Source: a virus. From it: a stretch of 34,103 bases of DNA. The notes under the pieces are model-generated. The model did no database searches. It was given only the letters and a program-made list of their open reading frames with translations, and was not told where the DNA came from. This document shows, in pieces, positions 5,834-34,103 of the stretch (the first letter of the stretch is position 1; each line of letters starts with the position of its first letter). The stretch is from UHGV virus genome UHGV-0238489, one strand, 5' to 3'. The translations under genes were made by a program, and so were the position numbers.

Positions 5834-5936
5834 AGTAAAGCCTGCGAAGGGAGGGTGTCTGGGGTGAGGAAAGACTGAGAGTTAAAGCATTCATCTTAGA
5901 ATCCATTCAACTCAAAAAACAAAAGCCCAGCCAACG

Positions 5937-6926
5937 ATGAAACCCCTTAGTCTCGAAAAAGCCTTCAATATCGCATTCTTCGAAAAAGATTCCTTTCAAA
6001 ACTTTCTTTCGTTTGAACCATTTCAACAAACTAAATTTATAACCTTTGATGAAAGGTTAATTGCTGAGCCCAGTTCTAAACTAAAAGAGTATCACAAATT
6101 CATAAATGAATTTGTTCTTTCATACTTGAAAGTAAATAAGGATGTTGTGTTTTCGTATAGAAAAGGAAGCAGCACTTATGATGCAGTAAAACTTCATGCC
6201 TGTAGTAAGATATTCTTCAATACTGATATTAAAAACTTTTTCCCGTCGATAACTCGTGAATATGCACGATCAGTTTTAGTTGATAACTTATCGAACGTTC
6301 CCATTTCCGATTTAAATATACATCTGGATAAAATTTTAGATTATATTATTATCGATAATTCGTTGCCTGTAGGGTTCCCAACATCACCAGCTTTCAGCAA
6401 TGCCTGTTTATATGACTTTGATGTTGAGATGCAGCAATATTGTATTAACCATGAATATATATTCACGCGCTATTCAGATGATATTATTATTTCCTCTGAA
6501 AATGATGAGGGGTTTGAGAATATTAATTCTGTAGTAAGTGACCTGCTGGGTGAGTTTGGGAATGGGCATTTCAAACTAAACTCAGCAAAAACTAAATTGA
6601 TTAAAAAAGGCAGTAAGATTAAGCTGCTGGGGATGGTTATTTTACCATCTCAGATAGTCTCTGTTGATATTAAAATAAAAAGAAAACTTGAGCATTTAAT
6701 TCATTTTTATGTAACGGATAAAGATAAATTTATAGATTCTATAATAAAAGATCCTAAAGTTAAAACTAGCGGATTGAATAATAGCGAGATTTTGGAAAAG
6801 GGTGTTAATACAGTTTCTGGTCTTTTAAATCATATAAACACAATTGATAAGAGTTATCTCGATAAGCTAAAGAGAAAATACGGAAATACGATTGTCGATA
6901 TGCTTTTTTACAAGAATGTTAATTAA
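5937..6926 (+). CDS. reverse transcriptase, 329 aa (retron-type or Abi-type defence RT)
   Basis: RT motifs are readable in the translation: motif A NTDIKNFFPSI, motif B' LPVGFPTSPAFSN, motif C YSDD (FTRYSDDIIIS), motif D/E LNSAKTKLI. A NAxxH-like YDAVKLH and a VTG-like VSG are present. AT-rich codon usage contrasts with the phage backbone. Confidence 0.8.
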   Translation: MKPLSLEKAFNIAFFEKDSFQNFLSFEPFQQTKFITFDERLIAEPSSKLKEYHKFINEFVLSYLKVNKDVVFSYRKGSSTYDAVKLHACSKIFFNTDIKNFFPSITREYARSVLVDNLSNVPISDLNIHLDKILDYIIIDNSLPVGFPTSPAFSNACLYDFDVEMQQYCINHEYIFTRYSDDIIISSENDEGFENINSVVSDLLGEFGNGHFKLNSAKTKLIKKGSKIKLLGMVILPSQIVSVDIKIKRKLEHLIHFYVTDKDKFIDSIIKDPKVKTSGLNNSEILEKGVNTVSGLLNHINTIDKSYLDKLKRKYGNTIVDMLFYKNVN

Positions 6927-6927
6927 A

Positions 6928-8280
6928 ATGAAAATAAACATTGAGATCTCAAAAATCCAGCATGTTGAACATATGTCATTTGCTATTGATCTTTCTGAAA
7001 ATAAACTGACTTGCATTGTAGGAAAGAACGGTGCTGGAAAGACAACGTTAATCAAAGCAATTAAAAATTTACAATCAGCAGATACATTCATAAAGACATC
7101 TTCTAGATATATATTCAATCCTGACAGTAGCATAGTATATAATATTAATGATCAAAATATAGTATATGTCTATGATGAGAATTTGAAGGTAATAGACACT
7201 AAGCAAATAATTCCAGCAGATATTAAATCCAATCTTTATGTCGAGTTGCCCATTCCTCATGGAATGAGGTTCAATAACTTCCCAACACTTAGTAAAATTG
7301 ATACAGAACTTAGAAAAAGTATTGCGTTTGAAAACTATAGCGTTCCCGAGGATTTGATAAATATACTCAATGAGGTATATCAGTCTTCTTCTTACAATAA
7401 TCTTAAAGCATTTTCTGTAAAAAATGAAATTTTCTATTTCAGATTGAATGAGAACGGAACATACATAAGGGAGGATTACTTTAGCTCGGGTGAGTATTTC
7501 ATTTTGAATTTATTTAGAATGATTGAGCTCAAAAGAAAGTTCATTGTCATAGATGAGATAGATATATCACTAGACTCTTCGGCGCAAGTCCATCTTATAG
7601 CAGTGCTAAGGAAATATTGTCAGAGACACTCGGTGAATATTGTATTCACAACACATTCACTTGCTTTAATGCAAACGCTGAATGATGATGAATTGTACTA
7701 TATGTGCGAAAGTGATGCTGGAACTACAATTACAAATCGATCCTATAATTATATAAAAAGTACGCTTTTTGGATTTAAAGGATGGGATAAGTACATTCTT
7801 ACTGAAGATGAAGTTCTGCAAAACTTCTTAGAATATATAATTAATGCCTCTGGGAATGATTACTTCTACGAATACAAAATAATATATGTTGGTGGAGGAA
7901 CTAATGTCATTGATTTAATGCGTCGTAATGAGAGAGAGAGCTTTCTCACGACTCAACAGAATGTGATCTCAGTGTTAGACGGAGATCAATTAGGTCAAAG
8001 GCATGCTCGAGGTGAAAATATTTTATGCATACCTTTCCAAAGTGTTGAGAAGGATTTCTATCAAGCATACGGCCAAGATGAATCGATCCCGAGAATTACA
8101 ACTAGAGGTAACGATAAACTTGATAAGCAAGTTTATCGAGGGGTAGTGAAAACCTATAACAACGGTTGGGATGAAACTAGGGTTTTTGAATACCTTGAGA
8201 GGTTAAAGCCTGATGAGTGTGAGGCTTTCAGGCAAAAAATTAGAGCATTTCTCCAAAGAAATATTTCGCCAGAGGGTTGA
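6928..8280 (+). CDS. ABC-type ATPase with C-terminal Toprim-like domain (OLD-family-like nuclease ATPase), about 450 aa
   Basis: Walker A GKNGAGKTT, ABC signature-like FSSGEY, Walker B FIVIDEID, H-loop FTTHS. The C-terminus has a conserved acidic ILTEDE and a DxD VLDGDQ, as in Toprim. Start is 1 nt after the RT stop (alternative upstream ATGs at 6892 and 6916). Confidence 0.7.
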   Translation: MKINIEISKIQHVEHMSFAIDLSENKLTCIVGKNGAGKTTLIKAIKNLQSADTFIKTSSRYIFNPDSSIVYNINDQNIVYVYDENLKVIDTKQIIPADIKSNLYVELPIPHGMRFNNFPTLSKIDTELRKSIAFENYSVPEDLINILNEVYQSSSYNNLKAFSVKNEIFYFRLNENGTYIREDYFSSGEYFILNLFRMIELKRKFIVIDEIDISLDSSAQVHLIAVLRKYCQRHSVNIVFTTHSLALMQTLNDDELYYMCESDAGTTITNRSYNYIKSTLFGFKGWDKYILTEDEVLQNFLEYIINASGNDYFYEYKIIYVGGGTNVIDLMRRNERESFLTTQQNVISVLDGDQLGQRHARGENILCIPFQSVEKDFYQAYGQDESIPRITTRGNDKLDKQVYRGVVKTYNNGWDETRVFEYLERLKPDECEAFRQKIRAFLQRNISPEG

Positions 8281-8422
8281 ATATAAGCTTCGGGATCTCA
8301 TGCGTCTCTATCTGCATGAAATTGCATTTGATAATTCCTATTTTTCTCGTGAGCTGTGTCACGTTAGGCGCAGCTCAGGGCTCATAATGCACCTGCATTA
8401 AAACCGACCCATCAAGCGCGCA

Positions 8423-16801: not shown

Positions 16802-17231
16802 CGCCGTGCCGCAGTTAAAAACCAATCCCGAAATGATGCGTATCTTTGCCGATGAGGGAAATATCGATGCGCGTCTTGCCGCCTCGCTGTCACATGAAAA
16901 GAATTACACGCTGAATGTGATCGTCTGCGATTTTGTCGGCGACCCTGACCTGATTTTCGTGCCAGTGGTGGCGTGGCTCAGGGAGAACCAGCCGGATATC
17001 TGCACGCTGGATGAGGGGCGTAAAAAGGGCTATCGATTCCAGATGGATTTAAACGACGGGGATAATGTTGATATCAGTATCAGCCTGCAGCTCACCGAGC
17101 GCACGCTTGTCAGGGATGAAAACGGGGCTCTACACGTCAGCTATGCGCCTGAACCGCCATTACCCGAGCCGGTGACGCGTCCTACTGAGCTGTATATCAA
17201 TGGCGAACTGGTGAGCAAATGGGATGAATGA
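16764..17231 (+). CDS. R: tail completion protein R-like, 155 aa from MQKMKSL
   Basis: ORF 16680-17231. The internal ATG at 16764 gives 155 aa, as for P2 R. Confidence 0.7.
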   Translation: MQKMKSLRQALTDAVPQLKTNPEMMRIFADEGNIDARLAASLSHEKNYTLNVIVCDFVGDPDLIFVPVVAWLRENQPDICTLDEGRKKGYRFQMDLNDGDNVDISISLQLTERTLVRDENGALHVSYAPEPPLPEPVTRPTELYINGELVSKWDE

Positions 17232-17682
17232 ATTAAAGCCTTTTGATGACAAACTTGCGGGGTTGATTGCGGCAATATCACCTGCGGGTCGGCGTAAGCT
17301 GGCCGCTGAAATCGCAAAGGAACTGCGCAGATCGCAACAGCAACGCATCAAACAGCAAAAAGCACCTGATAGCTCACCGTATCAGGCACGAAAACGCCAG
17401 CCACTCAGGGCAAAAAAGGGGCGGATTAAAAAGGCGATGTTTCAGAAGCTGCGAACGAGCCGCTACATGAAAGCCAGTGGCCGCAGTGATACTGCCGTGG
17501 TGGAGTTCACTGGCAAGGTGCAACACATTGCGCAGATTCATCAATACGGACTTAAAGACCGGCCAAACCCTCATGCTCAGAACGTGCAATATCCAGCTCG
17601 TCAACTGCTTGGATTTAGCCACAATGAAGAGGTTATCGTTGAAAAAATAATCATCGAATATCTTGATAGGAAAAGGCTTTAG
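17224..17682 (+). CDS. S: tail completion protein S-like, 152 aa
   Basis: Overlaps the R stop. Size matches P2 S. Confidence 0.75.
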   Translation: MNELKPFDDKLAGLIAAISPAGRRKLAAEIAKELRRSQQQRIKQQKAPDSSPYQARKRQPLRAKKGRIKKAMFQKLRTSRYMKASGRSDTAVVEFTGKVQHIAQIHQYGLKDRPNPHAQNVQYPARQLLGFSHNEEVIVEKIIIEYLDRKRL

Positions 17683-18035
17683 AAACTCTAAGGTGATCCG
17701 TTAACAAAGGATTGAAAGGAACACCTTCCTTTTTATTCCCTAGATTTTATGCATTTAGTACTATTCTGCTCTTCCGGATACTACAAGTTTGGTTCTTAGC
17801 TCTAAGTTCTTGAGACCTCTCTTAATGAAAATACTAGTAAGAATGATGTTGTTCGTATCTTAATTTATTGTTATGTTTGGTTTTTTAGAGCTGTGGATGT
17901 TATCGTGATAACATCCTTAAGAACTCGATTTATCTATGATTTTTATGCTTCCGGAGGGCTTAAAAGTGCGTAATGAAATGGACTTTATTTGATTATTCAA
18001 TTTGGTATATGGTGTGTGCAAAACATTAATACAAT

Positions 18036-19853
18036 ATGGCGAATGGAATAAAGTTTAAAATGAATTTTATAAATAAAATGCTTAGATCGACTACTATAGA
18101 CTTTAAGAGAAAAACCTTTTATCTAGATTTTCTATTTCTTTTTGTTTGTGTTTGGACGCTTATCTCTTCTGGTTCTGAAGTTCAATATTATCTTTTTAAA
18201 TTTATTGGTAGTGATAGTTCCACCCTTTACGGCAGCGTCTTTGAAGATGCTATAGCCCGGATGCCTACATTTAATCAATATATAAAGGGTGCTTACACAG
18301 TCTCTGGTAATTTCGGTTTTATTGCTGCGCTGCTTATAGTCGCTGTGTCTTTGTTTTATCAGAGTGCGATACAGGTGTTTATCGTTTGTGTTATTAGTTC
18401 AGTGTTTGGATTGACGATAACAGATATTGTTATGTTCGTTTTTAACGATACTCTAACTACGCAATCAGTTACTGAAAGCATAATTGCGAATACATTGGGT
18501 TCGCCTATAATTGCAAGTTTCGTTGTTTTCCTGTTTTGTATAAAAAAGATTCTCTTTGGGGCTGTTAATGTTAATTTAGCTTTTCGCTTTGTTATGAGTT
18601 ATATAGTTTATGTTTTATTGTGTTCTTTAATATTATTGATTACTTACTACGTTGTATGTTTTTTCTACAGACCAACAGCTGTAAATTTTTCTGTATCAAC
18701 TTCAGAAGATTTTTCAGGGGATTATTTTATTACGCAAAAAGATAAGGCCTCGAAAAAAGACGACCCTGAGAAACAAAAACGCTTTTCATTGTTAGGTTCT
18801 CCCGTTGAAATAAATGAGTCTGTACGTGTTTATGGAGACATTAAAACTATAAGGTCAAAAACACATGAAAATGAAACCTTTAATTTAAAAATACTACCAT
18901 TACTTAATTGCATAGATGGCAGTTCAGTTAACGCTGCATCATCTAGATCTTTAACGTATAGCAATGTGAAAAATTTATCCATTAAATCGTCCGAGCTCAT
19001 CTCAATACTACTTATAAATGACAAGGTTGGTCATGTTAAAAGTAGTGACGAGCTTGTAAATATGTTTTCTGTTAAAAAGAATGACAGAAATGGATTTGAT
19101 GTTACAAAAATTAATGATGGTGCTTTTAGTTATTATCCATCCGAGTCTAACGCCGGGTTCTATATGGCTACGCCAGTGTCGGAATTTACAGGGGATCAAG
19201 CCAAGAAGATTGTCCAATATACATTGGATATTGATGGCGCTGAAAAAACAATTAGCGTTGAAGTTGAAAGGCTACGTTCAATAAATAAAGATAAGAAAAT
19301 GCACTGCGAAGTTGCATCTTTCAGAGATTCTGACGGTGATATTAACATAAAGGCTGATGAATCTGTATATCTTGGTCTTCTTGTTAAGATGGAATCAGAA
19401 GAGGAGAAGGAATTCTACTCACTTTTTAATGAAGATAATAGCAAAATTGTAGTGGATGGAAATTTACTATATGTCCAGGCTCAAAAAGTTCCGAAAGAAG
19501 ATTTGCTTGGGAAGTATTTTGTTAAAGGTTATCTGGATGGATTTATTCTCCATTCATTTGATAAATTATCATTAGATGGGAGAAATGTAGAGTCTAATAA
19601 GATGGATAACCTGATGGTCATGGGTGATGATATATATGCAAGTGTATCTGATGGGACTAACTTGGTAATAAGCGGTAGGGCTGATCTTTTTTATAAAAAT
19701 AGGCTACGGCAAAATAAAACATTATGGGAGTCGTCAAGTGATAATACGCTAATACTTGGCGGGCTTGGTGGATTGCTGGTTTCATTATTGTTGTGGGGAA
19801 GTAATAAAATTTTTACAACTCTACGTAAAAATGAAGTTATTAATATGTTTTAA
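18036..19853 (+). CDS. polytopic membrane protein of unknown function, 605 aa; cargo gene in an AT-rich island between S and V
   Basis: About five N-terminal TM helices, a roughly 350-aa hydrophilic domain and a C-terminal TM (LILGGLGGLLVSLLLWG). Strongly AT-rich codon usage unlike flanking phage genes. I recognise no catalytic motif. Confidence 0.6.
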   Translation: MANGIKFKMNFINKMLRSTTIDFKRKTFYLDFLFLFVCVWTLISSGSEVQYYLFKFIGSDSSTLYGSVFEDAIARMPTFNQYIKGAYTVSGNFGFIAALLIVAVSLFYQSAIQVFIVCVISSVFGLTITDIVMFVFNDTLTTQSVTESIIANTLGSPIIASFVVFLFCIKKILFGAVNVNLAFRFVMSYIVYVLLCSLILLITYYVVCFFYRPTAVNFSVSTSEDFSGDYFITQKDKASKKDDPEKQKRFSLLGSPVEINESVRVYGDIKTIRSKTHENETFNLKILPLLNCIDGSSVNAASSRSLTYSNVKNLSIKSSELISILLINDKVGHVKSSDELVNMFSVKKNDRNGFDVTKINDGAFSYYPSESNAGFYMATPVSEFTGDQAKKIVQYTLDIDGAEKTISVEVERLRSINKDKKMHCEVASFRDSDGDINIKADESVYLGLLVKMESEEEKEFYSLFNEDNSKIVVDGNLLYVQAQKVPKEDLLGKYFVKGYLDGFILHSFDKLSLDGRNVESNKMDNLMVMGDDIYASVSDGTNLVISGRADLFYKNRLRQNKTLWESSSDNTLILGGLGGLLVSLLLWGSNKIFTTLRKNEVINMF

Positions 19854-19864
19854 GTTTTTTGAAA

Positions 19865-19885
19865 GGGCGGGTAATACCGCCATTT
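19865..19885 (+). terminator. hairpin gggcgg-gtaata-ccgcc followed by a weak T-tract, downstream of the membrane-protein ORF
   Basis: Stem-loop directly after the stop at 19853. Confidence 0.35.
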
Positions 19886-20014
19886 CATATGGGTTGTACG
19901 GTTTTGTTTAATTGTAATTGCATCTTGCTCTCTAGTTAACATATTGCAAATCATTATTGTCTTAGATGTTTATATTAAACTGTATTCAAATTTCTATTAA
20001 TTATTTTTGTTTTC

Positions 20015-20045
20015 AGGTTGTGCAGTCCCCCACAAAACCCCGCTC
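20015..20045 (+). promoter_or_regulatory. candidate Ogr-dependent late promoter for V (partial dyad gttgtg-N9-cacaaa)
   Basis: Imperfect TGT...ACA dyad about 50 bp upstream of the V start, resembling P2 late-promoter activator sites. Confidence 0.35.
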
Positions 20046-20082
20046 GATTGCCGCTGTCCCTGCCCGGCGGCATCCTTCCCGC

Positions 20083-20724
20083 ATGAACAATTTAACTTCT
20101 CTGCAGGAAATCGCTCGGGCGATCCGCAATCTCATCCGCACCGGCATTGTGACCGACGTCGACTCAGACGAGGGGCTTTGTCGTGTCCAGACCGGTGGGA
20201 TGCAAACCACGTGGCTTAACTGGCTGACCTGTCGCGCCGGTCGCTCACGGGTGTGGTGGGCTCCTTCCGTTGGTGAGCAGGTGCTCATTCTTGCCATTGG
20301 TGGCGAGCTCGACACTGCCTTTGTGCTGCCCGGAATTTTCTCTGATGACCATCCTGCGCCGTCAGCCTCGCCTGATGCGCTTCACGTCGCTTTTCCTGAC
20401 GGTGCTGTTATCGAGTACGAACCCGAAAGCGGATCGCTCACCGTATCCGGTATCAAAACCGCCGACGTTACCGCGTCGGATTCCATCACCGCCACCGTGC
20501 CGCTGGTACTGGTCAAGGCATCGACCCGCATCACCCTCGATACACCCGAGGTGGTGTGTACCAACAAGCTGACCACCGGCACGCTCGAAGTGAAAAAAGG
20601 CGGGAAGATGTCGGGGAACATCGATCACACCGGCGGGAAATTTACCTCGAACGGCGTGCAGGTCGATGACCACGACCACGGCGGTGTGGAGCAGGGCGGA
20701 AACTGGACGAAGGGGGTCAAATGA
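20083..20724 (+). CDS. V: baseplate spike / assembly protein V-like, 213 aa from MNNLTSL
   Basis: ORF 19966-20724. The internal ATG at 20083 gives 213 aa (P2 V is about 211 aa). The C-terminus is histidine/glycine-rich. Confidence 0.8.
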   Translation: MNNLTSLQEIARAIRNLIRTGIVTDVDSDEGLCRVQTGGMQTTWLNWLTCRAGRSRVWWAPSVGEQVLILAIGGELDTAFVLPGIFSDDHPAPSASPDALHVAFPDGAVIEYEPESGSLTVSGIKTADVTASDSITATVPLVLVKASTRITLDTPEVVCTNKLTTGTLEVKKGGKMSGNIDHTGGKFTSNGVQVDDHDHGGVEQGGNWTKGVK

Positions 20725-31317: not shown

Positions 31318-31539
31318 ATGTTTCATTGTCCGAAATGCCATCATGCCGCCCACGCCCGCACGAGTCGCTATTTTACTGATACCACAAAAGAGCGGTATCA
31401 CCAGTGCACAAACATCAACTGCAGTTGCACGTTTGTGACCACTGAAACAGTCGAGCGTTTCATCGTATCACCGGGCGAGGTAGTACCCGCGCCGCCGCAT
31501 CCAACAACGTCAGGTCAGCAGCAAATTCAATGGATGTGA
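31318..31539 (+). CDS. ogr: Ogr-type zinc-finger late-gene transcriptional activator, 73 aa from MFHCPKC
   Basis: CPKC...CTNINCSC four-cysteine pattern with HARTSRYFTDTTKERYHQC, closely matching P2 Ogr as I recall it. The ORF track begins at an upstream ATG at 31276. Confidence 0.85.
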   Translation: MFHCPKCHHAAHARTSRYFTDTTKERYHQCTNINCSCTFVTTETVERFIVSPGEVVPAPPHPTTSGQQQIQWM

Positions 31540-31641
31540 GAAGAAGTTGGTAGGTGGAATCTGGGTACGATATTTGTTAATACTAGCTTGTTGTAACAAA
31601 AATTAATTCTGACCTAACAGTACATTACGGAAAACGTATCC

Positions 31642-31851
31642 ATGACTTTTGATGAATATATGCAAAAAACCAGAGAAATAAATGAGCAACTTCAAGAGAT
31701 TTCTATGCTAACGGCAAATCAAGCACTAACAAATTGCGCAAACTCATCCAATCCCGGCTTTGTTGATCTGATGCGTCGTCATGCAGAATTGACAATGCGC
31801 TCGTTTAAGCTTACTGAAGAGATGATGAAACAGTTAGCTATTGATAACTAA
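31642..31851 (+). CDS. hypothetical small protein, 69 aa, AT-rich moron between ogr and the terminator
   Basis: ORF in an AT-rich segment not present in the P2 backbone. Followed by a strong intrinsic terminator. Confidence 0.4.
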   Translation: MTFDEYMQKTREINEQLQEISMLTANQALTNCANSSNPGFVDLMRRHAELTMRSFKLTEEMMKQLAIDN

Positions 31852-31957
31852 TAATCAAACACTAGGCCAAAAAGGTGTAAGAGCACTAGACACAATGATT
31901 GATACTCTGATTCTTTAAAGCAAATCAAAATTTTCTACCATTTTTTTTATAAATAAC

Positions 31958-31980
31958 GCCCCGCATTTGCGGGGCTTTTT
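31958..31980 (+). terminator. intrinsic terminator (gccccgc-attt-gcggggc then ttttt)
   Basis: Perfect 7-bp GC stem plus T5. The group II intron begins immediately downstream. Confidence 0.8.
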
Positions 31981-33896
31981 GTATGTGCGCCGGGCATGGC
32001 GCGTAGCGCCGTGACTGGCGCTGTTCTTCAACTGTGGTGGCTGAAGAACGACTAAGAGGTGAAAGTCCTCCACACACCCGGTGAGGGGAAGTGTTAGCGG
32101 AAGGCAAGGGTGTTCATCGCGAGGTGAAATCTGAAGGAAGCCGGATGCAAAATGCTGGCCTGACGAACAGGAAGCGGTTAAGGCGGCGCAGCGGGGTAAG
32201 GTGGCATACATCACCAAAGCCCGATACTCACACGGAACGCTGTGACGTAGAGCCGACAGGCATAAGCAGGAAAGTCGCGCGAATTACCCCGGGAGATCTG
32301 CCGTCCTGTCAGTGTGCTACCGGCGTCGTAAGGTGCCGGGATGGGGCGGCAGAAGTCAGCCGACGCTGTAGTAGTGCTGCAAAACCGGCAGCATGAAGGG
32401 CCGAACATGATTAACCGTGATTAGGACATCCGAACCCGATGATGATTAATGAAGCACAAGCGCAGGCAACTGCGGCCAGCGGCAGAGGAGACGGACGGTA
32501 TCCGTCAGGGCTGCATGATGGCGCTGAAATCAGCACGGCGGCGGGTGGGCAAACGAAAGCGGAAGTGCCGCTGACGATGGAAGCGGTGATAACGAGAGAA
32601 AACCTGATGCTGGCTTATCAGCGCGTGGTGGAAAACAAAGGCGCGGCGGGGGTGGATAACCTCAGCGTGGCGGAGTTGAAACCGTGGCTGAAGAAGAACT
32701 GGCGCAGTGTCAGGCAGGCATTGATTGACGGAAACTACCAGCCGCGGGCAATACGCCGGATGGATATCCCGAAGCCGGATGGCGGCGTGAGAATCTTAGG
32801 CATCCCGACGGTGGTGGACAGGCTTATCCAGCAGGCGATAGCGCAGCAGTTAAGCGCCATCGTGGACAAAAGCTTCTCAGACTCCAACGGCTTCCGGCCG
32901 GGGCGCAACGCATGGCAGGCGGTGCAACAGGCACAGCGTTACATACGGGGCGGCAAACGGTGGGTGGTGGATATGGATCTGGAGAAGTTCTTTGACCGGG
33001 TGGATCACAGACTCCTGATGACGCGTCTGGCCAGAACGATAAAGGACAGGCGGGTGCTGAGACTGATACGCCGCTACCTGAAAGCGGAAATAGTCCGGGA
33101 CGGGCAAAGGGAGAAACGGCAGGAGGGCATGCCGCAGGGCGGCCCGCTGTCGCCGTTACTGTCGAACATCCTGCTGGATGAACTGGATAAAGAACTGGAG
33201 CGTCGTTGACACAGCTTCTGCCGCTACGCAGACGACTGCAACATCAACGTAAGCAGCCGGAAAGCGGGCGACCATCTGCTGAAGAACATCAGGGCGTTCG
33301 TGGAGAACAAAATGAAACTGAAGGTGAATGAGAAGAAGAGCGCGGTGGCGCGCCCGTGGGAGCGGAAGTTCCTCGGGTACAGTGTGACATGGCACAAACA
33401 GGCGAAGCTGAAAATAGCCCTGACGAGCGTGAACAGGCTGAAGGAGAAAGTCCGCAGTCTGACCACGGGAAACCGGAGCAAATCAGTGAAAGCGACAATC
33501 AATGCCCTGACGCCAGTGCTGCGTGGATGGATAAGCTACTTCAGGCTGACGGAAGTCAGAGGAGTGCAGGAAGAGCTGGACGGCTGGATCAAACGGAAAC
33601 TGCGGTGCCTGTTGTGGCGGCAGTGGAAGAGGCCGGGAACCCGGACGAAGAACCTGCAAAGAGCGGGGCTGAGTAAGGACAGGGCGATGATCTCAGCGTA
33701 CAACAACCATGGGCCATGGTGGAACTCAGGGTCAAGCCATATGAATCAGGCGATAAAGAATGCGTGGTTCAGCAGGCAGGGTCTGATATCACTGCTGGAA
33801 CAGCAGAGGCAGTTCCAGTGTTAACATGAACCGCCGTATGCGGAGCCGCATGTACGGTGGTGTGAGAGGACGGCGGGAGTGATCCCGCCTCCTACT
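31981..33896 (+). mobile_element. group II intron (bacterial, class C-like), about 1.9 kb, inserted just after an intrinsic terminator
   Basis: GTGCG-like 5' end at 31986. An RT/maturase ORF sits inside. Domain V-like hairpin at about 33829-33860 (ccgtatgcgg-agc-cgcatgtacgg) and a domain VI-like bulged hairpin at about 33864-33895. Insertion after a terminator stem-loop is typical of IIC introns. Boundaries are approximate (about +/-10 nt). Confidence 0.7.
32439..33824 (+). pseudogene. group II intron-encoded RT/maturase interrupted by a single in-frame TGA (33207-33209)
   Basis: ORFs 32439-33209 and 33300-33824 are in the same frame. The sequence reads ...LDELDKELERR-TGA-HSFCRYADDCNINV..., so the stop replaces the codon just before the YADD motif. 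RT motifs (GIPTVVDRLIQQA, LPQGGPLSPLLSNILL) precede a maturase-like C-terminus. Confidence 0.7.
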
Positions 33897-33961
33897 CGAT
33901 CGATGTGGTCAATGTGTGGACATTGTAATAAATAAATCCATTTATTTCATTAGGTTAGAAC

Positions 33962-33984
33962 AAAAAAATAAGCCCGTGTAAGGG
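33962..33984. repeat. attR: att core copy (attR side, next to ogr)
   Basis: Exact 23-bp direct repeat of 159-181. The right copy continues as agatt, matching the P2 core as I recall it. Confidence 0.75.
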
Positions 33985-34103
33985 AGATTACACAGGCTAA
34001 GGAGGTGGTTCCTGGTACAGCTAGCATTTTATGGGTTATGTTTTTCAGCGAAACGGATGATAACCTTAATAAATGCAGCTGTATGTGATCGGTTTCTAAG
34101 AAT

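What the first reader, a model, noticed from the sequence alone, without database searches (positions are those of the whole stretch)
17683..20082. AT-rich cargo island between S and V encoding a 605-aa polytopic membrane protein of unknown function
P2 has only a short ORF (orf30) between S and V. Here about 2.4 kb of strongly AT-rich DNA is inserted with its own AT-rich upstream region and a downstream hairpin. The single large ORF has about five N-terminal TM helices, a roughly 350-aa hydrophilic domain with no motif I can assign, and a C-terminal TM anchor. Composition and location point to horizontally acquired cargo. A membrane-anchored sensor/effector in a prophage is a plausible superinfection-exclusion or abortive-infection protein. 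I cannot assign it to a known family.
Basis: partly seen in the sequence, partly recalled or inferred. Interest (0 to 1): 0.8.

Follow-up and report, generated by a model that had tools for sequence, protein, structure and literature searches.

The report
Unknown membrane protein in prophage hotspot
A P2-like prophage carries, in a slot that usually holds anti-phage genes, one foreign gene for an inner-membrane protein with a large periplasmic domain unlike any solved structure; it is probably a new envelope-level phage-exclusion or surface-conversion factor, but its function is untested.

Summary
A 2,334-bp island (17683-20016, 33% GC, flanks 48-59%) sits between tail gene S and baseplate gene V of an intact P2-like prophage. 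It holds one gene. The true start is 18060, giving 597 aa rather than 605.

The protein has five N-terminal TM helices, a 340-residue all-beta domain and a C-terminal TM helix. Positive-inside bias and two invariant cysteines place the beta domain in the periplasm. No Pfam, NCBIfam, PHROG or PADLOC model matches it. A confident model (pLDDT 93.5) has no Foldseek relative in PDB or BFVD.

Close relatives form only 13 clusters among 5.8 billion proteins. An exhaustive search found about 237 divergent full-length relatives (20-26% identity). All named ones are from Pseudomonadota.

Fourteen of 15 contexts examined are mobile-element cargo. Nine of these are in P2-like phages, across three different slots, including the classic portal-gpA defence hotspot.

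In 78 related phages the S-V slot is empty in 17 and filled in 61. The fillings form 52 protein clusters, many of them known defence genes.

Best reading: a solo, envelope-acting exclusion or defence determinant of a new family. Function is inferred from context only. The main rival is an envelope-modifying conversion enzyme.

The parts
17683..20016 (.). AT-rich cargo island inserted between the S stop codon and the conserved segment upstream of V
   Evidence: 2,334 bp at 32.9% GC, against 48% for S and 59% for V. The boundaries come from comparison with empty and filled S-V slots in related phages. There are no flanking direct or inverted repeats.
18060..19853 (+). Cargo gene, 597 aa plus stop: polytopic inner-membrane protein of an unannotated family (WP_201489199.1 in E. 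coli A15)
   Evidence: ORF listing. PGAP start and product 'hypothetical protein'. All homologues start at this ATG, and the upstream ATG at 18036 is out of frame in Citrobacter. dN/dS is about 0.15 against the 88%-identical copies.
18060..18674 (+). Residues 1-205: membrane domain with five TM helices and a conserved first periplasmic loop (40-85). Invariant Q42 (18183-18185) and D122 (18423-18425); near-invariant N144 and G147
   Evidence: Hydropathy, AF2 helices, conservation across 50 divergent members, and six conserved hydrophobic segments with positive-inside bias in 46 distant members.
18675..19697 (+). Residues 206-546: all-beta domain of about 22 strands, predicted periplasmic, with invariant C284 (18909-18911) and C416 (19305-19307)
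   Evidence: AF2 domain model with pLDDT 93.5 and pTM 0.89. No Foldseek relative in PDB or BFVD. Exactly two Cys in this domain in 47 of 50 members. No internal repeat.
19698..19742 (+). Residues 547-561: the most conserved stretch of the family, the juxtamembrane motif R550-x-N-x-T554-x-W556-E557 just before the last TM helix
   Evidence: R550, T554, W556 and E557 are invariant in 50 divergent members. This region has the highest conservation of any. Coordinates were checked.
19743..19850 (+). Residues 562-597: C-terminal TM helix (562-584) and a 13-residue cytoplasmic tail
17683..18059 (+). AT-rich (32% GC) non-coding leader that travels with the gene. A weak hairpin lies at 17709-17739. The last 100 nt or so are nearly identical in the Citrobacter and IMG/VR copies
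   Evidence: Alignment A6. Hairpin fold dG -9.7 kcal/mol, z -1.7. The simple consensus scan found no strong sigma-70 site on the + strand, so a promoter here is inferred, not shown.
19860..19887 (+). Hairpin 7 nt after the stop codon; possible terminator without a good U-tract
   Evidence: dG -14.9 kcal/mol, z -2.3.
20017..20082 (+). Conserved GC-rich segment upstream of V that forms the right edge of the slot (TGT..ACA dyad and a GCCGC...GGCGGC hairpin)
   Evidence: It is present immediately upstream of V in both empty and filled slots of related phages. Fold.
17224..17682 (+). gpS (tail completion / virion morphogenesis protein); left flank of the slot
   Evidence: PGAP annotation. Pfam Phage_tail_S in homologous loci.
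20083..20724 (+). gpV (baseplate assembly / spike protein); right flank of the slot
   Evidence: PGAP annotation. Pfam Phage_base_V and Phage_spike in homologous loci.

Best explanation
The island is a single-gene cargo cassette in the S-V (orf30) slot of a P2-like prophage. This slot is hypervariable and rich in defence genes.

Its product is an inner-membrane protein with both termini in the cytoplasm. Five TM helices lead into a disulfide-bonded all-beta periplasmic domain of about 340 residues, and a sixth TM helix anchors the other end. A cluster of invariant polar residues (Q42, D122, N144, R550, T554, W556, E557) sits where the helices meet the periplasm.

I propose that it protects the lysogen, or the host of any other mobile element that carries it, at the level of the cell envelope. 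The most likely mode is interference with the periplasm and inner-membrane step of genome entry by incoming phages. The beta domain would engage the incoming apparatus, and the conserved membrane-interface site would carry out the block or gating.

Shown here: the gene, its foreign origin, purifying selection, the architecture, the lack of known relatives, and its mobile-element and hotspot contexts. Inferred: the topology, the disulfide, expression in the lysogen, and all of the function.
For: 1. The gene is real and under selection. Full-length homologues span 95% down to about 20% identity with the same architecture. dN/dS is about 0.15 in both the TM and beta parts.

2. It is mobile, solo cargo. 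Contexts found:
- the S-V slot in E. coli, Citrobacter and two IMG/VR phages;
- the classic portal-gpA defence hotspot of P2-like prophages in Klebsiella (next to an AAA_15/AAA_21 ATPase gene) and in two other phages;
- between the integrase and the portal gene of a Pseudomonas-like P2-like prophage;
- just after the integrase of a 186-like prophage;
- a prophage edge in Xenorhabdus;
- an ICE-like element in Y. ruckeri;
- a Rhizobium conjugative plasmid, between RES-Xre and PIN toxin-antitoxin pairs;
- Tn7-like transposon cargo in Methylosinus;
- an integrase/IS island;
- beside ParE/RelB and ThiF+JAB genes.
No partner gene recurs across these contexts.

3. The slot is a defence hotspot. Of 78 related phages, 17 have an empty 62-bp gap as measured, and 61 carry AT-rich inserts of 750-4,105 bp. 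The inserts hold 52 protein clusters in about 39 arrangements. They include PtuA/Septu (E 5.7e-146), AriA plus DUF4435 (PARIS), AbiL, AIPR, SIR2, TIR, DUF4238, GmrSD_N and PDC-S31.

4. The same prophage carries a type I-B retron in the gpA-portal hotspot.

5. The protein must act in the envelope. Positive-inside bias holds in 46 distant members. Exactly two Cys occur in the beta domain in 47 of 50 members, and both are invariant. The cytoplasmic segments are tiny and are the least conserved parts. All invariant polar residues lie at the periplasmic membrane face.

6. There are precedents for inner-membrane proteins that stop phage genome entry: P22 SieA (PMC10883804) and SNIPE (PMC13190303).
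Against: - There is no functional datum of any kind. Defence is inferred from location only.
- P2 hotspots also carry non-defence cargo. Examples are cdt toxins and partition systems (Rousset 2022) and a MASE4-GGDEF protein found in this survey.
- Known exclusion proteins are much smaller. SieA has 162-164 aa and three TM helices.
- A polar cluster that stays invariant across homologues of about 20% identity looks more like a catalytic or gating site than a surface that recognises fast-evolving phage proteins.
- dN/dS gives no sign of diversifying selection in the beta domain.
- No convincing sigma-70 promoter was found upstream by the simple scan. The gene is co-oriented with the late genes, so expression in the lysogen is unproven.
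- The family is very rare. A broadly useful defence might be expected to be more common.
Confidence: 0.45

Rival explanations
1. It is an envelope-modifying conversion enzyme. The invariant D122, N144, R550 and E557 cluster at the periplasmic membrane face would be an active site acting on a lipid-anchored substrate, such as LPS core or lipid A, undecaprenyl-phosphate-linked glycans or phospholipid head groups. The beta domain would bind the glycan. The result would be an altered surface: receptor masking, seroconversion or resistance to envelope stress. This would still exclude some phages, but by blocking adsorption rather than entry.
For: - The invariant acidic and basic residues sit at the membrane-periplasm interface.
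- Selection is uniformly purifying, with no hypervariable recognition surface.
- The gene works as a solo gene across alpha-, beta- and gammaproteobacteria, which fits a universal envelope substrate.
- The weak top Foldseek hits are lectin-like or glucanase-like beta-sandwiches (Emp46p CRD, legume lectins, GH16), although all have probability <=0.23 and TM <=0.2.
- From general knowledge, P2 itself adsorbs to LPS core.
Against: - Nothing matches any glycosyltransferase, acyltransferase, phosphotransferase or ligase family in Pfam or NCBIfam for any of 50 members.
- Six TM helices are far fewer than in GT-C enzymes or Wzy/WaaL-type enzymes.
- No gtrA/gtrB-like partner or sugar-activating gene lies nearby in any context.
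- The structural hits are not significant.
Confidence: 0.25
2. It is a periplasm-triggered abortive-infection channel. The six-helix membrane domain would oligomerise into a gated pore. The beta domain would sense envelope damage or a phage periplasmic protein and open the pore, collapsing the membrane potential and killing or arresting the cell.
For: - Conserved polar residues inside and at the mouth of the TM helices (Q42, D122, E139, N144) are compatible with an ion path.
- Membrane-disrupting effectors are common in defence systems (general knowledge).
- The hotspot contexts are the same as for the best explanation.
Against: - The conserved residues cluster at one membrane face rather than lining a full-length path.
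- There is no evidence of toxicity or oligomerisation.
- There is no antitoxin-like or regulatory partner gene.
- Sensing only from the periplasm would be unusual for an Abi system.
Confidence: 0.12
3. It is accessory cargo unrelated to phages or other mobile elements. Examples would be a virulence or colonisation factor, protection against bacteriocins, tailocins or T6SS, a transporter-like function, or a selfish passenger with little benefit.
For: - P2 hotspots hold non-defence genes too (MASE4-GGDEF).
- One context, P0032, shows no mobile-element signal.
- The family is rare.
Against: - Purifying selection holds over deep divergence.
- The gene has been captured repeatedly and independently in slots dominated by defence genes.
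- It resembles no transporter or adhesin family.
Confidence: 0.18

Closest known systems
P22 SieA (superinfection exclusion A)
   Same: It is a prophage-encoded, single-gene inner-membrane protein that is necessary and sufficient to block DNA injection. It probably interferes with the periplasmic and membrane ejection-protein conduit. Its sequence types are very divergent, below 30% identity (PMC10883804). This is the best functional analogue of what I propose.
   Different: SieA has 162-164 aa, three TM helices and no large periplasmic domain. I did not compare the two sequences directly. The architectures do not correspond.
SNIPE (membrane-bound nuclease defence system)
   Same: It is constitutively membrane-localised and acts at the site of genome injection. 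It associates with tape measure proteins and inner-membrane entry factors (PMC13190303).
   Different: SNIPE works through a nuclease domain that cuts the entering DNA. The protein here has no nuclease domain or any other cytoplasmic domain.
P2 accessory exclusion genes old, tin and Z/fun, with orf30
   Same: They are AT-rich, non-essential morons of P2-like phages, sitting in the three loci known to take up foreign genes: the TO region, the Z region and orf30 (PMC3091744; PMC9122126; preprint 10.1101/2024.10.15.618418). The island occupies the orf30 locus.
   Different: From general knowledge and the cited papers, Old (ATPase-TOPRIM), Tin and Fun are soluble cytoplasmic proteins. Orf30 is a gene of about 261 bp with unknown function. 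None resembles this 597-aa membrane protein.
Membrane proteins with five or six TM helices plus one large periplasmic beta-rich domain (YidC P1 domain, LptF/LptG beta-jellyroll)
   Same: The layout is similar in outline: a helical bundle joined to a periplasmic beta domain that works at the outer face of the inner membrane. This comparison rests on general knowledge.
   Different: The order is reversed relative to YidC (1 TM, P1 domain, 5 TM), and the domain is inserted at a different place from LptF/G. Neither appears among the Foldseek hits, and there is no Pfam match. It is an analogy only.

Membership tests
Any curated protein family (Pfam-A, NCBIfam, PHROGs) | Significant profile-HMM match | tested here: not met
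   Pfam gave 0 hits at E<=1. PHROGs gave 0 hits. NCBIfam gave only a 12-bit chance hit against a cutoff of 538. None of 50 divergent members matches Pfam or PHROGs.
Known or candidate anti-phage defence proteins (PADLOC-DB v2.0.0, including PDC candidates and the Rousset and Vassallo systems) | Significant match to a PADLOC model | tested here: not met
   0 hits for the window protein and 0 hits for any of 50 superfamily members. Systems described after 2023 are not covered.
Proteins of known structure | Sequence-profile or fold similarity to a PDB entry | tested here: not met
Horizontally acquired moron / hotspot cargo of P2-like phages | Deviant base composition compared with the core phage genes | tested here: met
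   32.9% GC against 48-59% in the flanks.
Horizontally acquired moron / hotspot cargo of P2-like phages | The locus is variable between otherwise syntenic phages, with empty and differently filled versions | tested here: met
   Of 78 loci, 17 are empty and 61 are filled, with 52 protein clusters. Only 1 of 5,426 E. coli genomes has this cargo.
Horizontally acquired moron / hotspot cargo of P2-like phages | Own promoter and terminator, with expression from the repressed prophage | tested here: inconclusive
   There is a 377-bp AT-rich leader that is conserved among copies and a downstream hairpin. The simple scan found no strong sigma-70 consensus on the + strand. No expression data are available.
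Superinfection-exclusion proteins acting at genome entry (SieA-like in function) | Located in the inner membrane | tested here: inconclusive
   Six conserved hydrophobic segments, positive-inside bias and an AF2 helical bundle all predict it. This is prediction only.
Superinfection-exclusion proteins acting at genome entry (SieA-like in function) | Blocks infection after adsorption and before DNA reaches the cytoplasm; necessary and sufficient as a single gene | not testable with these tools
   This needs plating, adsorption and DNA-entry assays.
Superinfection-exclusion proteins acting at genome entry (SieA-like in function) | Homology to SieA, Imm, Sp, Cor, Llp or gp15 | not tested
   I made no direct sequence comparison. 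Size and architecture differ greatly from SieA, and no Pfam or PHROG family of these proteins was hit.
Phage-borne O-antigen/LPS modification enzymes (GtrC, Oac, Wzy-type) | Match to GT-C, acyltransferase-3 or Wzy families, and nearby gtrA/gtrB or equivalent partner genes | tested here: not met
   There is no family match. No such neighbour appears in any of 15 contexts.

The most novel reading that the evidence does not exclude
This would be the founding member of a new class of envelope-level immunity. A solo inner-membrane protein would use a periplasmic domain with a previously unseen beta fold to detect the incoming genome-delivery apparatus of phages, or possibly of conjugative elements. 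A conserved polar site at the membrane-periplasm interface would then stop nucleic-acid entry. The gene would be portable across alpha-, beta- and gammaproteobacteria and would travel between phages, ICEs, plasmids and Tn7-like transposons.
Probability: 0.3. Interest if true: 0.8.

Novelty: new variant of a known kind. Interest (0 to 1): 0.55.

Why it matters
Almost all characterised anti-phage systems sense and act in the cytoplasm. Proteins that stop infection in the periplasm or at the inner membrane are few, small and specific to particular phages.

A 600-residue protein with all its conserved machinery on the periplasmic side is therefore unusual. It has a confidently predicted fold with no detectable relative. 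It has been captured repeatedly in phage defence hotspots and in other mobile elements across three classes of Pseudomonadota. If it proves to be a defence protein, it offers a tractable single-gene way into envelope-level immunity and the mechanics of phage genome entry. If it proves to be a surface-conversion enzyme, it would be a new enzyme family.

The survey also shows that the S-V (orf30) slot is a defence-rich hypervariable hotspot in its own right. The hotspot papers I read single out the gpA-portal and Z/fun loci, or lump everything downstream of gpL together, so this slot is a further place to mine for new systems.

Tried and rejected
- Profile searches with the search for homologous proteins using divergent alignments returned only the close family or the first sequence. 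They gave no names or contexts for distant members, so two of the three searches yielded nothing new.
- The search for related loci with the divergent alignment failed because no stretch was conserved enough.
- The first full-length AF2 model, built from 14 sequences, was mediocre (pLDDT 68.7) and its Foldseek hits were noise.
- There is no hit in 50,697 phage records by DNA or tblastn.
- Transposon or IS-type insertion was rejected, because the island has no flanking direct or inverted repeats.
- An internal duplication in the beta domain was rejected (hhalign probability 1.8%).
- Diversifying selection on the beta domain was not seen.
- An outer-membrane beta-barrel reading, suggested by weak hits to NalP, FadL and OmpW-like barrels, was rejected because the domain is flanked by TM helices on both sides and has no signal peptide.
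- A recurring partner gene was looked for and not found. KTSC plus a DUF87/HerA-like ATPase lie near two copies (L006, L014). I left this as an unexplained coincidence.
- A text search for the family's accession numbers in the paper library found nothing.
Full report
**What is there**

The window is an intact P2-like prophage. It is 99.8% identical over the query stretch to one in E. coli A15 (otter, Mexico), integrated between yegR and yegQ.

A 2,334-bp stretch of 32.9% GC (17683-20016) lies between the stop codon of tail-completion gene S (17224-17682) and a conserved GC-rich 66-bp segment directly upstream of baseplate gene V (20083-20724).

The stretch holds one long ORF. The mechanical ORF begins at 18036 and gives 605 aa. 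PGAP and every homologue begin at the ATG at 18060. In the Citrobacter copies a 1-nt indel puts the upstream ATG out of frame. The product is therefore 597 aa.

A 377-bp AT-rich leader precedes the gene. A hairpin follows the stop codon at 19860-19887, with dG -14.9 kcal/mol and z -2.3. No direct or inverted repeats flank the island.

**The protein**

Hydropathy and AlphaFold2 agree on the layout:
- five TM helices (about 21-39, 86-98, 103-128, 136-160, 173-203);
- an all-beta region (206-546);
- a short conserved juxtamembrane stretch (547-561);
- a sixth TM helix (562-584) and a 13-residue tail.

The topology can be inferred from 46 relatives of about 20% identity. All six hydrophobic segments are conserved in them. 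K+R minus D+E is +2.8 for the N-terminus, +1.9 for loop 2 and +1.0 for the C-terminus, but -2.0 for loop 1. This gives an N-in, C-in topology with the beta domain in the periplasm.

The cysteines support this. The beta domain has exactly two Cys in 47 of 50 members, and both (C284, C416) are invariant, as expected for a periplasmic disulfide.

The residues invariant across the superfamily are Q42, D122, C284, C416, G539, R550, T554, W556 and E557. G38, Y57, G147, G220, F242 and G490 are conserved in at least 90% of members, and N144 in 88%. All the polar ones lie at the periplasmic ends of the helices or in the juxtamembrane motif. The cytoplasmic segments are the shortest and least conserved parts. 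Whatever the protein does, it does it in the membrane or periplasm.

**No known relatives**

- Pfam, PHROGs and PADLOC give no hit, and NCBIfam gives only a 12-bit chance hit far below its cutoff.
- None of 50 divergent members hits Pfam, PADLOC or PHROGs.
- A profile search against all PDB sequences finds nothing.
- A domain-only AF2 model built from an 85-sequence alignment is very confident (pLDDT 93.5, pTM 0.89). Even so, Foldseek finds nothing convincing in PDB (best E 8e-3, probability <=0.23, TM <=0.15) or in BFVD (best E 2e-3, probability <=0.30).
- The domain has no internal repeat.

**Distribution**

The close family is extremely rare:
- 13 clusters at 90% identity among 5.8 billion proteins, all 597-601 aa and all from Enterobacterales;
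- 1 of 5,426 complete E. coli genomes;
- 1 of 185,579 species-representative genomes;
- 2 of 2.9 million IMG/VR contigs;
- none of 50,697 phage records.

An exhaustive phmmer search of 1.84 billion representatives shows a wider superfamily. It found 237 proteins at E<=1e-3 and 118 at E<=1e-10. Nearly all are full-length matches of 570-620 aa at 20-26% identity. Most of the 30 looked up are singletons from metagenomes.

The named members come from Klebsiella, Yersinia, Xenorhabdus, Citrobacter, Cronobacter, Pseudomonas, Pandoraea, Rhizobium, Mesorhizobium, Bradyrhizobium, Methylosinus and Acidocella. All are Pseudomonadota and all are annotated as hypothetical.

dN/dS against the 88%-identical copies is about 0.15 in both the TM part and the beta part. 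This is a functional gene under purifying selection.

**Genomic contexts**

I examined 15 contexts:
- Four have the gene in the S-V slot of P2-like phages: the window, Citrobacter, and two IMG/VR contigs at 88% and 52% identity.
- Three have it in the classic portal-gpA defence hotspot of P2-like prophages. These are Klebsiella at 37% identity, beside an AAA_15/AAA_21 ATPase gene, and two metagenomic phages at 39% and 24% identity.
- One lies between the integrase and the portal gene of a Pseudomonas-like P2-like element.
- One lies directly after the integrase of a 186-like prophage.
- One is at a prophage edge in Xenorhabdus.
- One is next to a MobA relaxase in a Y. ruckeri ICE-like element.
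- One is on a Rhizobium conjugative plasmid, between RES-Xre and PIN toxin-antitoxin pairs.
- One is in the cargo of a Tn7-like transposon.
- One is in an integrase/IS island.
- One is beside a T4CP fragment, ParE/RelB and ThiF+JAB genes.
- One is uninformative.

These bullets list 16 loci. The two IMG/VR contigs in the first bullet count as one context, which gives the 15 contexts used elsewhere in this report.

No partner gene recurs across these contexts. The gene is a solo, highly mobile cargo gene.

**The S-V slot**

I fetched the 80 IMG/VR loci closest by gpS and measured the S-V interval. Of 78 loci with both genes, 17 are empty, with a 62-bp gap as measured. The other 61 carry inserts of 750-4,105 bp, and the 30 largest, the ones listed, are all 32-39% GC.

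The inserts encode 85 ORFs that fall into 52 clusters and about 39 arrangements. Thirty-seven representatives hit 211 PADLOC models and many defence-associated Pfam domains. The PADLOC hits include PtuA of Septu (E 5.7e-146), AriA of PARIS, AbiL, PDC-S31 and PDC-M01A. The Pfam hits include AAA_15, AAA_21, AIPR, SIR2_2, TIR_2, DUF4062, DUF4238, DUF4435, GmrSD_N and PIN-TPR. Non-defence cargo such as a MASE4-GGDEF protein also occurs.

In every case the insertion lies between the S stop codon and the conserved segment upstream of V. This fits cassette exchange by recombination in the conserved flanks.

The literature I read treats this slot unevenly:
- One genome paper lists the orf30 locus among three regions of P2-like phages that take up foreign genes (PMC3091744). 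Another notes a longer gene in place of orf30 in phage R18C (PMC6823313).
- The defence-hotspot papers single out other loci. Rousset 2022 treats the gpA-portal locus (PMC9122126). Vassallo 2022 adds the fun locus (PMC9519451). The iLund4u preprint adds a tail-protein-to-CI locus.
- A 2026 NAR paper reports 16% of P2 defence systems 'downstream of GpL' without resolving S-V (PMC13586616).

**Interpretation**

The evidence fits a cargo gene whose product acts in the cell envelope for the benefit of its carrier.

I rank envelope-level exclusion or defence first (0.45). The reasons are the repeated capture in defence-dominated slots of several mobile-element types, and the exclusively periplasmic and membrane functional mass. 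[quoted passage not shown]

The protein is not a member of either family. SieA has 162-164 aa with three TM helices. SNIPE acts through a nuclease domain, and this protein has no nuclease or other cytoplasmic domain.

The main rival (0.25) is an envelope-modifying conversion enzyme. Its active site would be the invariant D122, N144, R550 and E557 cluster at the membrane interface. The uniform purifying selection and the invariance of that cluster fit an enzyme or a gate better than a variable recognition surface. Against it, no enzyme family, partner gene or significant fold match supports it.

A periplasm-triggered Abi channel (0.12) and a non-defence accessory function (0.18) remain open. 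All functional statements are inferences, and no experiment or expression datum exists.

**Novelty and interest**

The phenomenon is well known: AT-rich foreign cargo in a P2 variable locus, likely protective. The protein family is not. It has no annotation, no detectable homologue of known function and no structural relative by Foldseek, and its architecture is unusual for a defence candidate.

I rate it a new variant of a known kind, with interest 0.55. It is a well-delimited, single-gene, testable candidate. It is also one of very many uncharacterised hotspot genes, and its function is unproven.

Noticed in passing
window 5937-8280 (+), within the AT-rich island at about 5900-8300: The classic gpA-portal hotspot of this prophage carries a type I-B retron. 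The RT is at 5937-6926 (PADLOC RT_I-B, E 8.3e-111). The ATPase-TOPRIM effector is at 6928-8280 (ATPase-Toprim_I-B, E 1.2e-179). The msr/msd RNA was not located, and the Rfam gathering scan found no retron RNA.
   Followed up: partly
window 32113-32401 and 33829-33900 (+): Group II intron RNA domains are present (RF02001 at 139 bits, RF01998, RF00029). They flank a disrupted ltrA reverse transcriptase/maturase, annotated as a pseudogene in strain A15. [quoted passage not shown]
   Followed up: no
window 33966-34051 (-): The CyaR (RyeE) sRNA gene lies just outside the prophage (Rfam, 100.7 bits).
   Followed up: no
window 20017-20082 and the equivalent position in L019-L098: A segment of about 66 bp directly upstream of V is conserved in all the related P2-like phages inspected, whether the slot is empty or filled. 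It holds a TGT..ACA dyad and a GCCGC...GGCGGC hairpin that ends about 13 nt before the ATG, with no obvious Shine-Dalgarno sequence. It may be the late promoter or activator site, or a translational element for V. I did not resolve this.
   Followed up: partly
L019-L098 (IMG/VR P2-like contigs), S-V interval: The S-V (orf30) slot is a hypervariable, defence-rich hotspot: 61 of 78 loci are filled, with 52 protein clusters including Septu, PARIS, AbiL, AIPR, SIR2, TIR and DUF4238 genes. Many clusters, several of them membrane proteins, are unannotated.
   Followed up: yes
L006 1-1329 and L014 16874-18816: A KTSC-domain gene next to a DUF87/HerA-like ATPase gene lies within a few kb of family members in two unrelated elements: the Y. 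ruckeri ICE-like element and the Rhizobium plasmid pRlX2. This may be coincidence or a common conjugative-element backbone.
   Followed up: no
window about 31500-32000: A third AT-rich dip (GC 0.38) follows the ogr-like regulator. It holds a hypothetical gene of about 69 aa annotated in strain A15. It lies at the tail-gene-D/ogr end, where the iLund4u preprint reports a further P2 hotspot.
   Followed up: no
L099 6484-8650: In the Klebsiella P2-like prophage, the family member shares the portal-gpA hotspot with an AAA_15/AAA_21 ATPase gene and a 294-aa gene with no Pfam hit. These look like a two-gene defence system.
   Followed up: no
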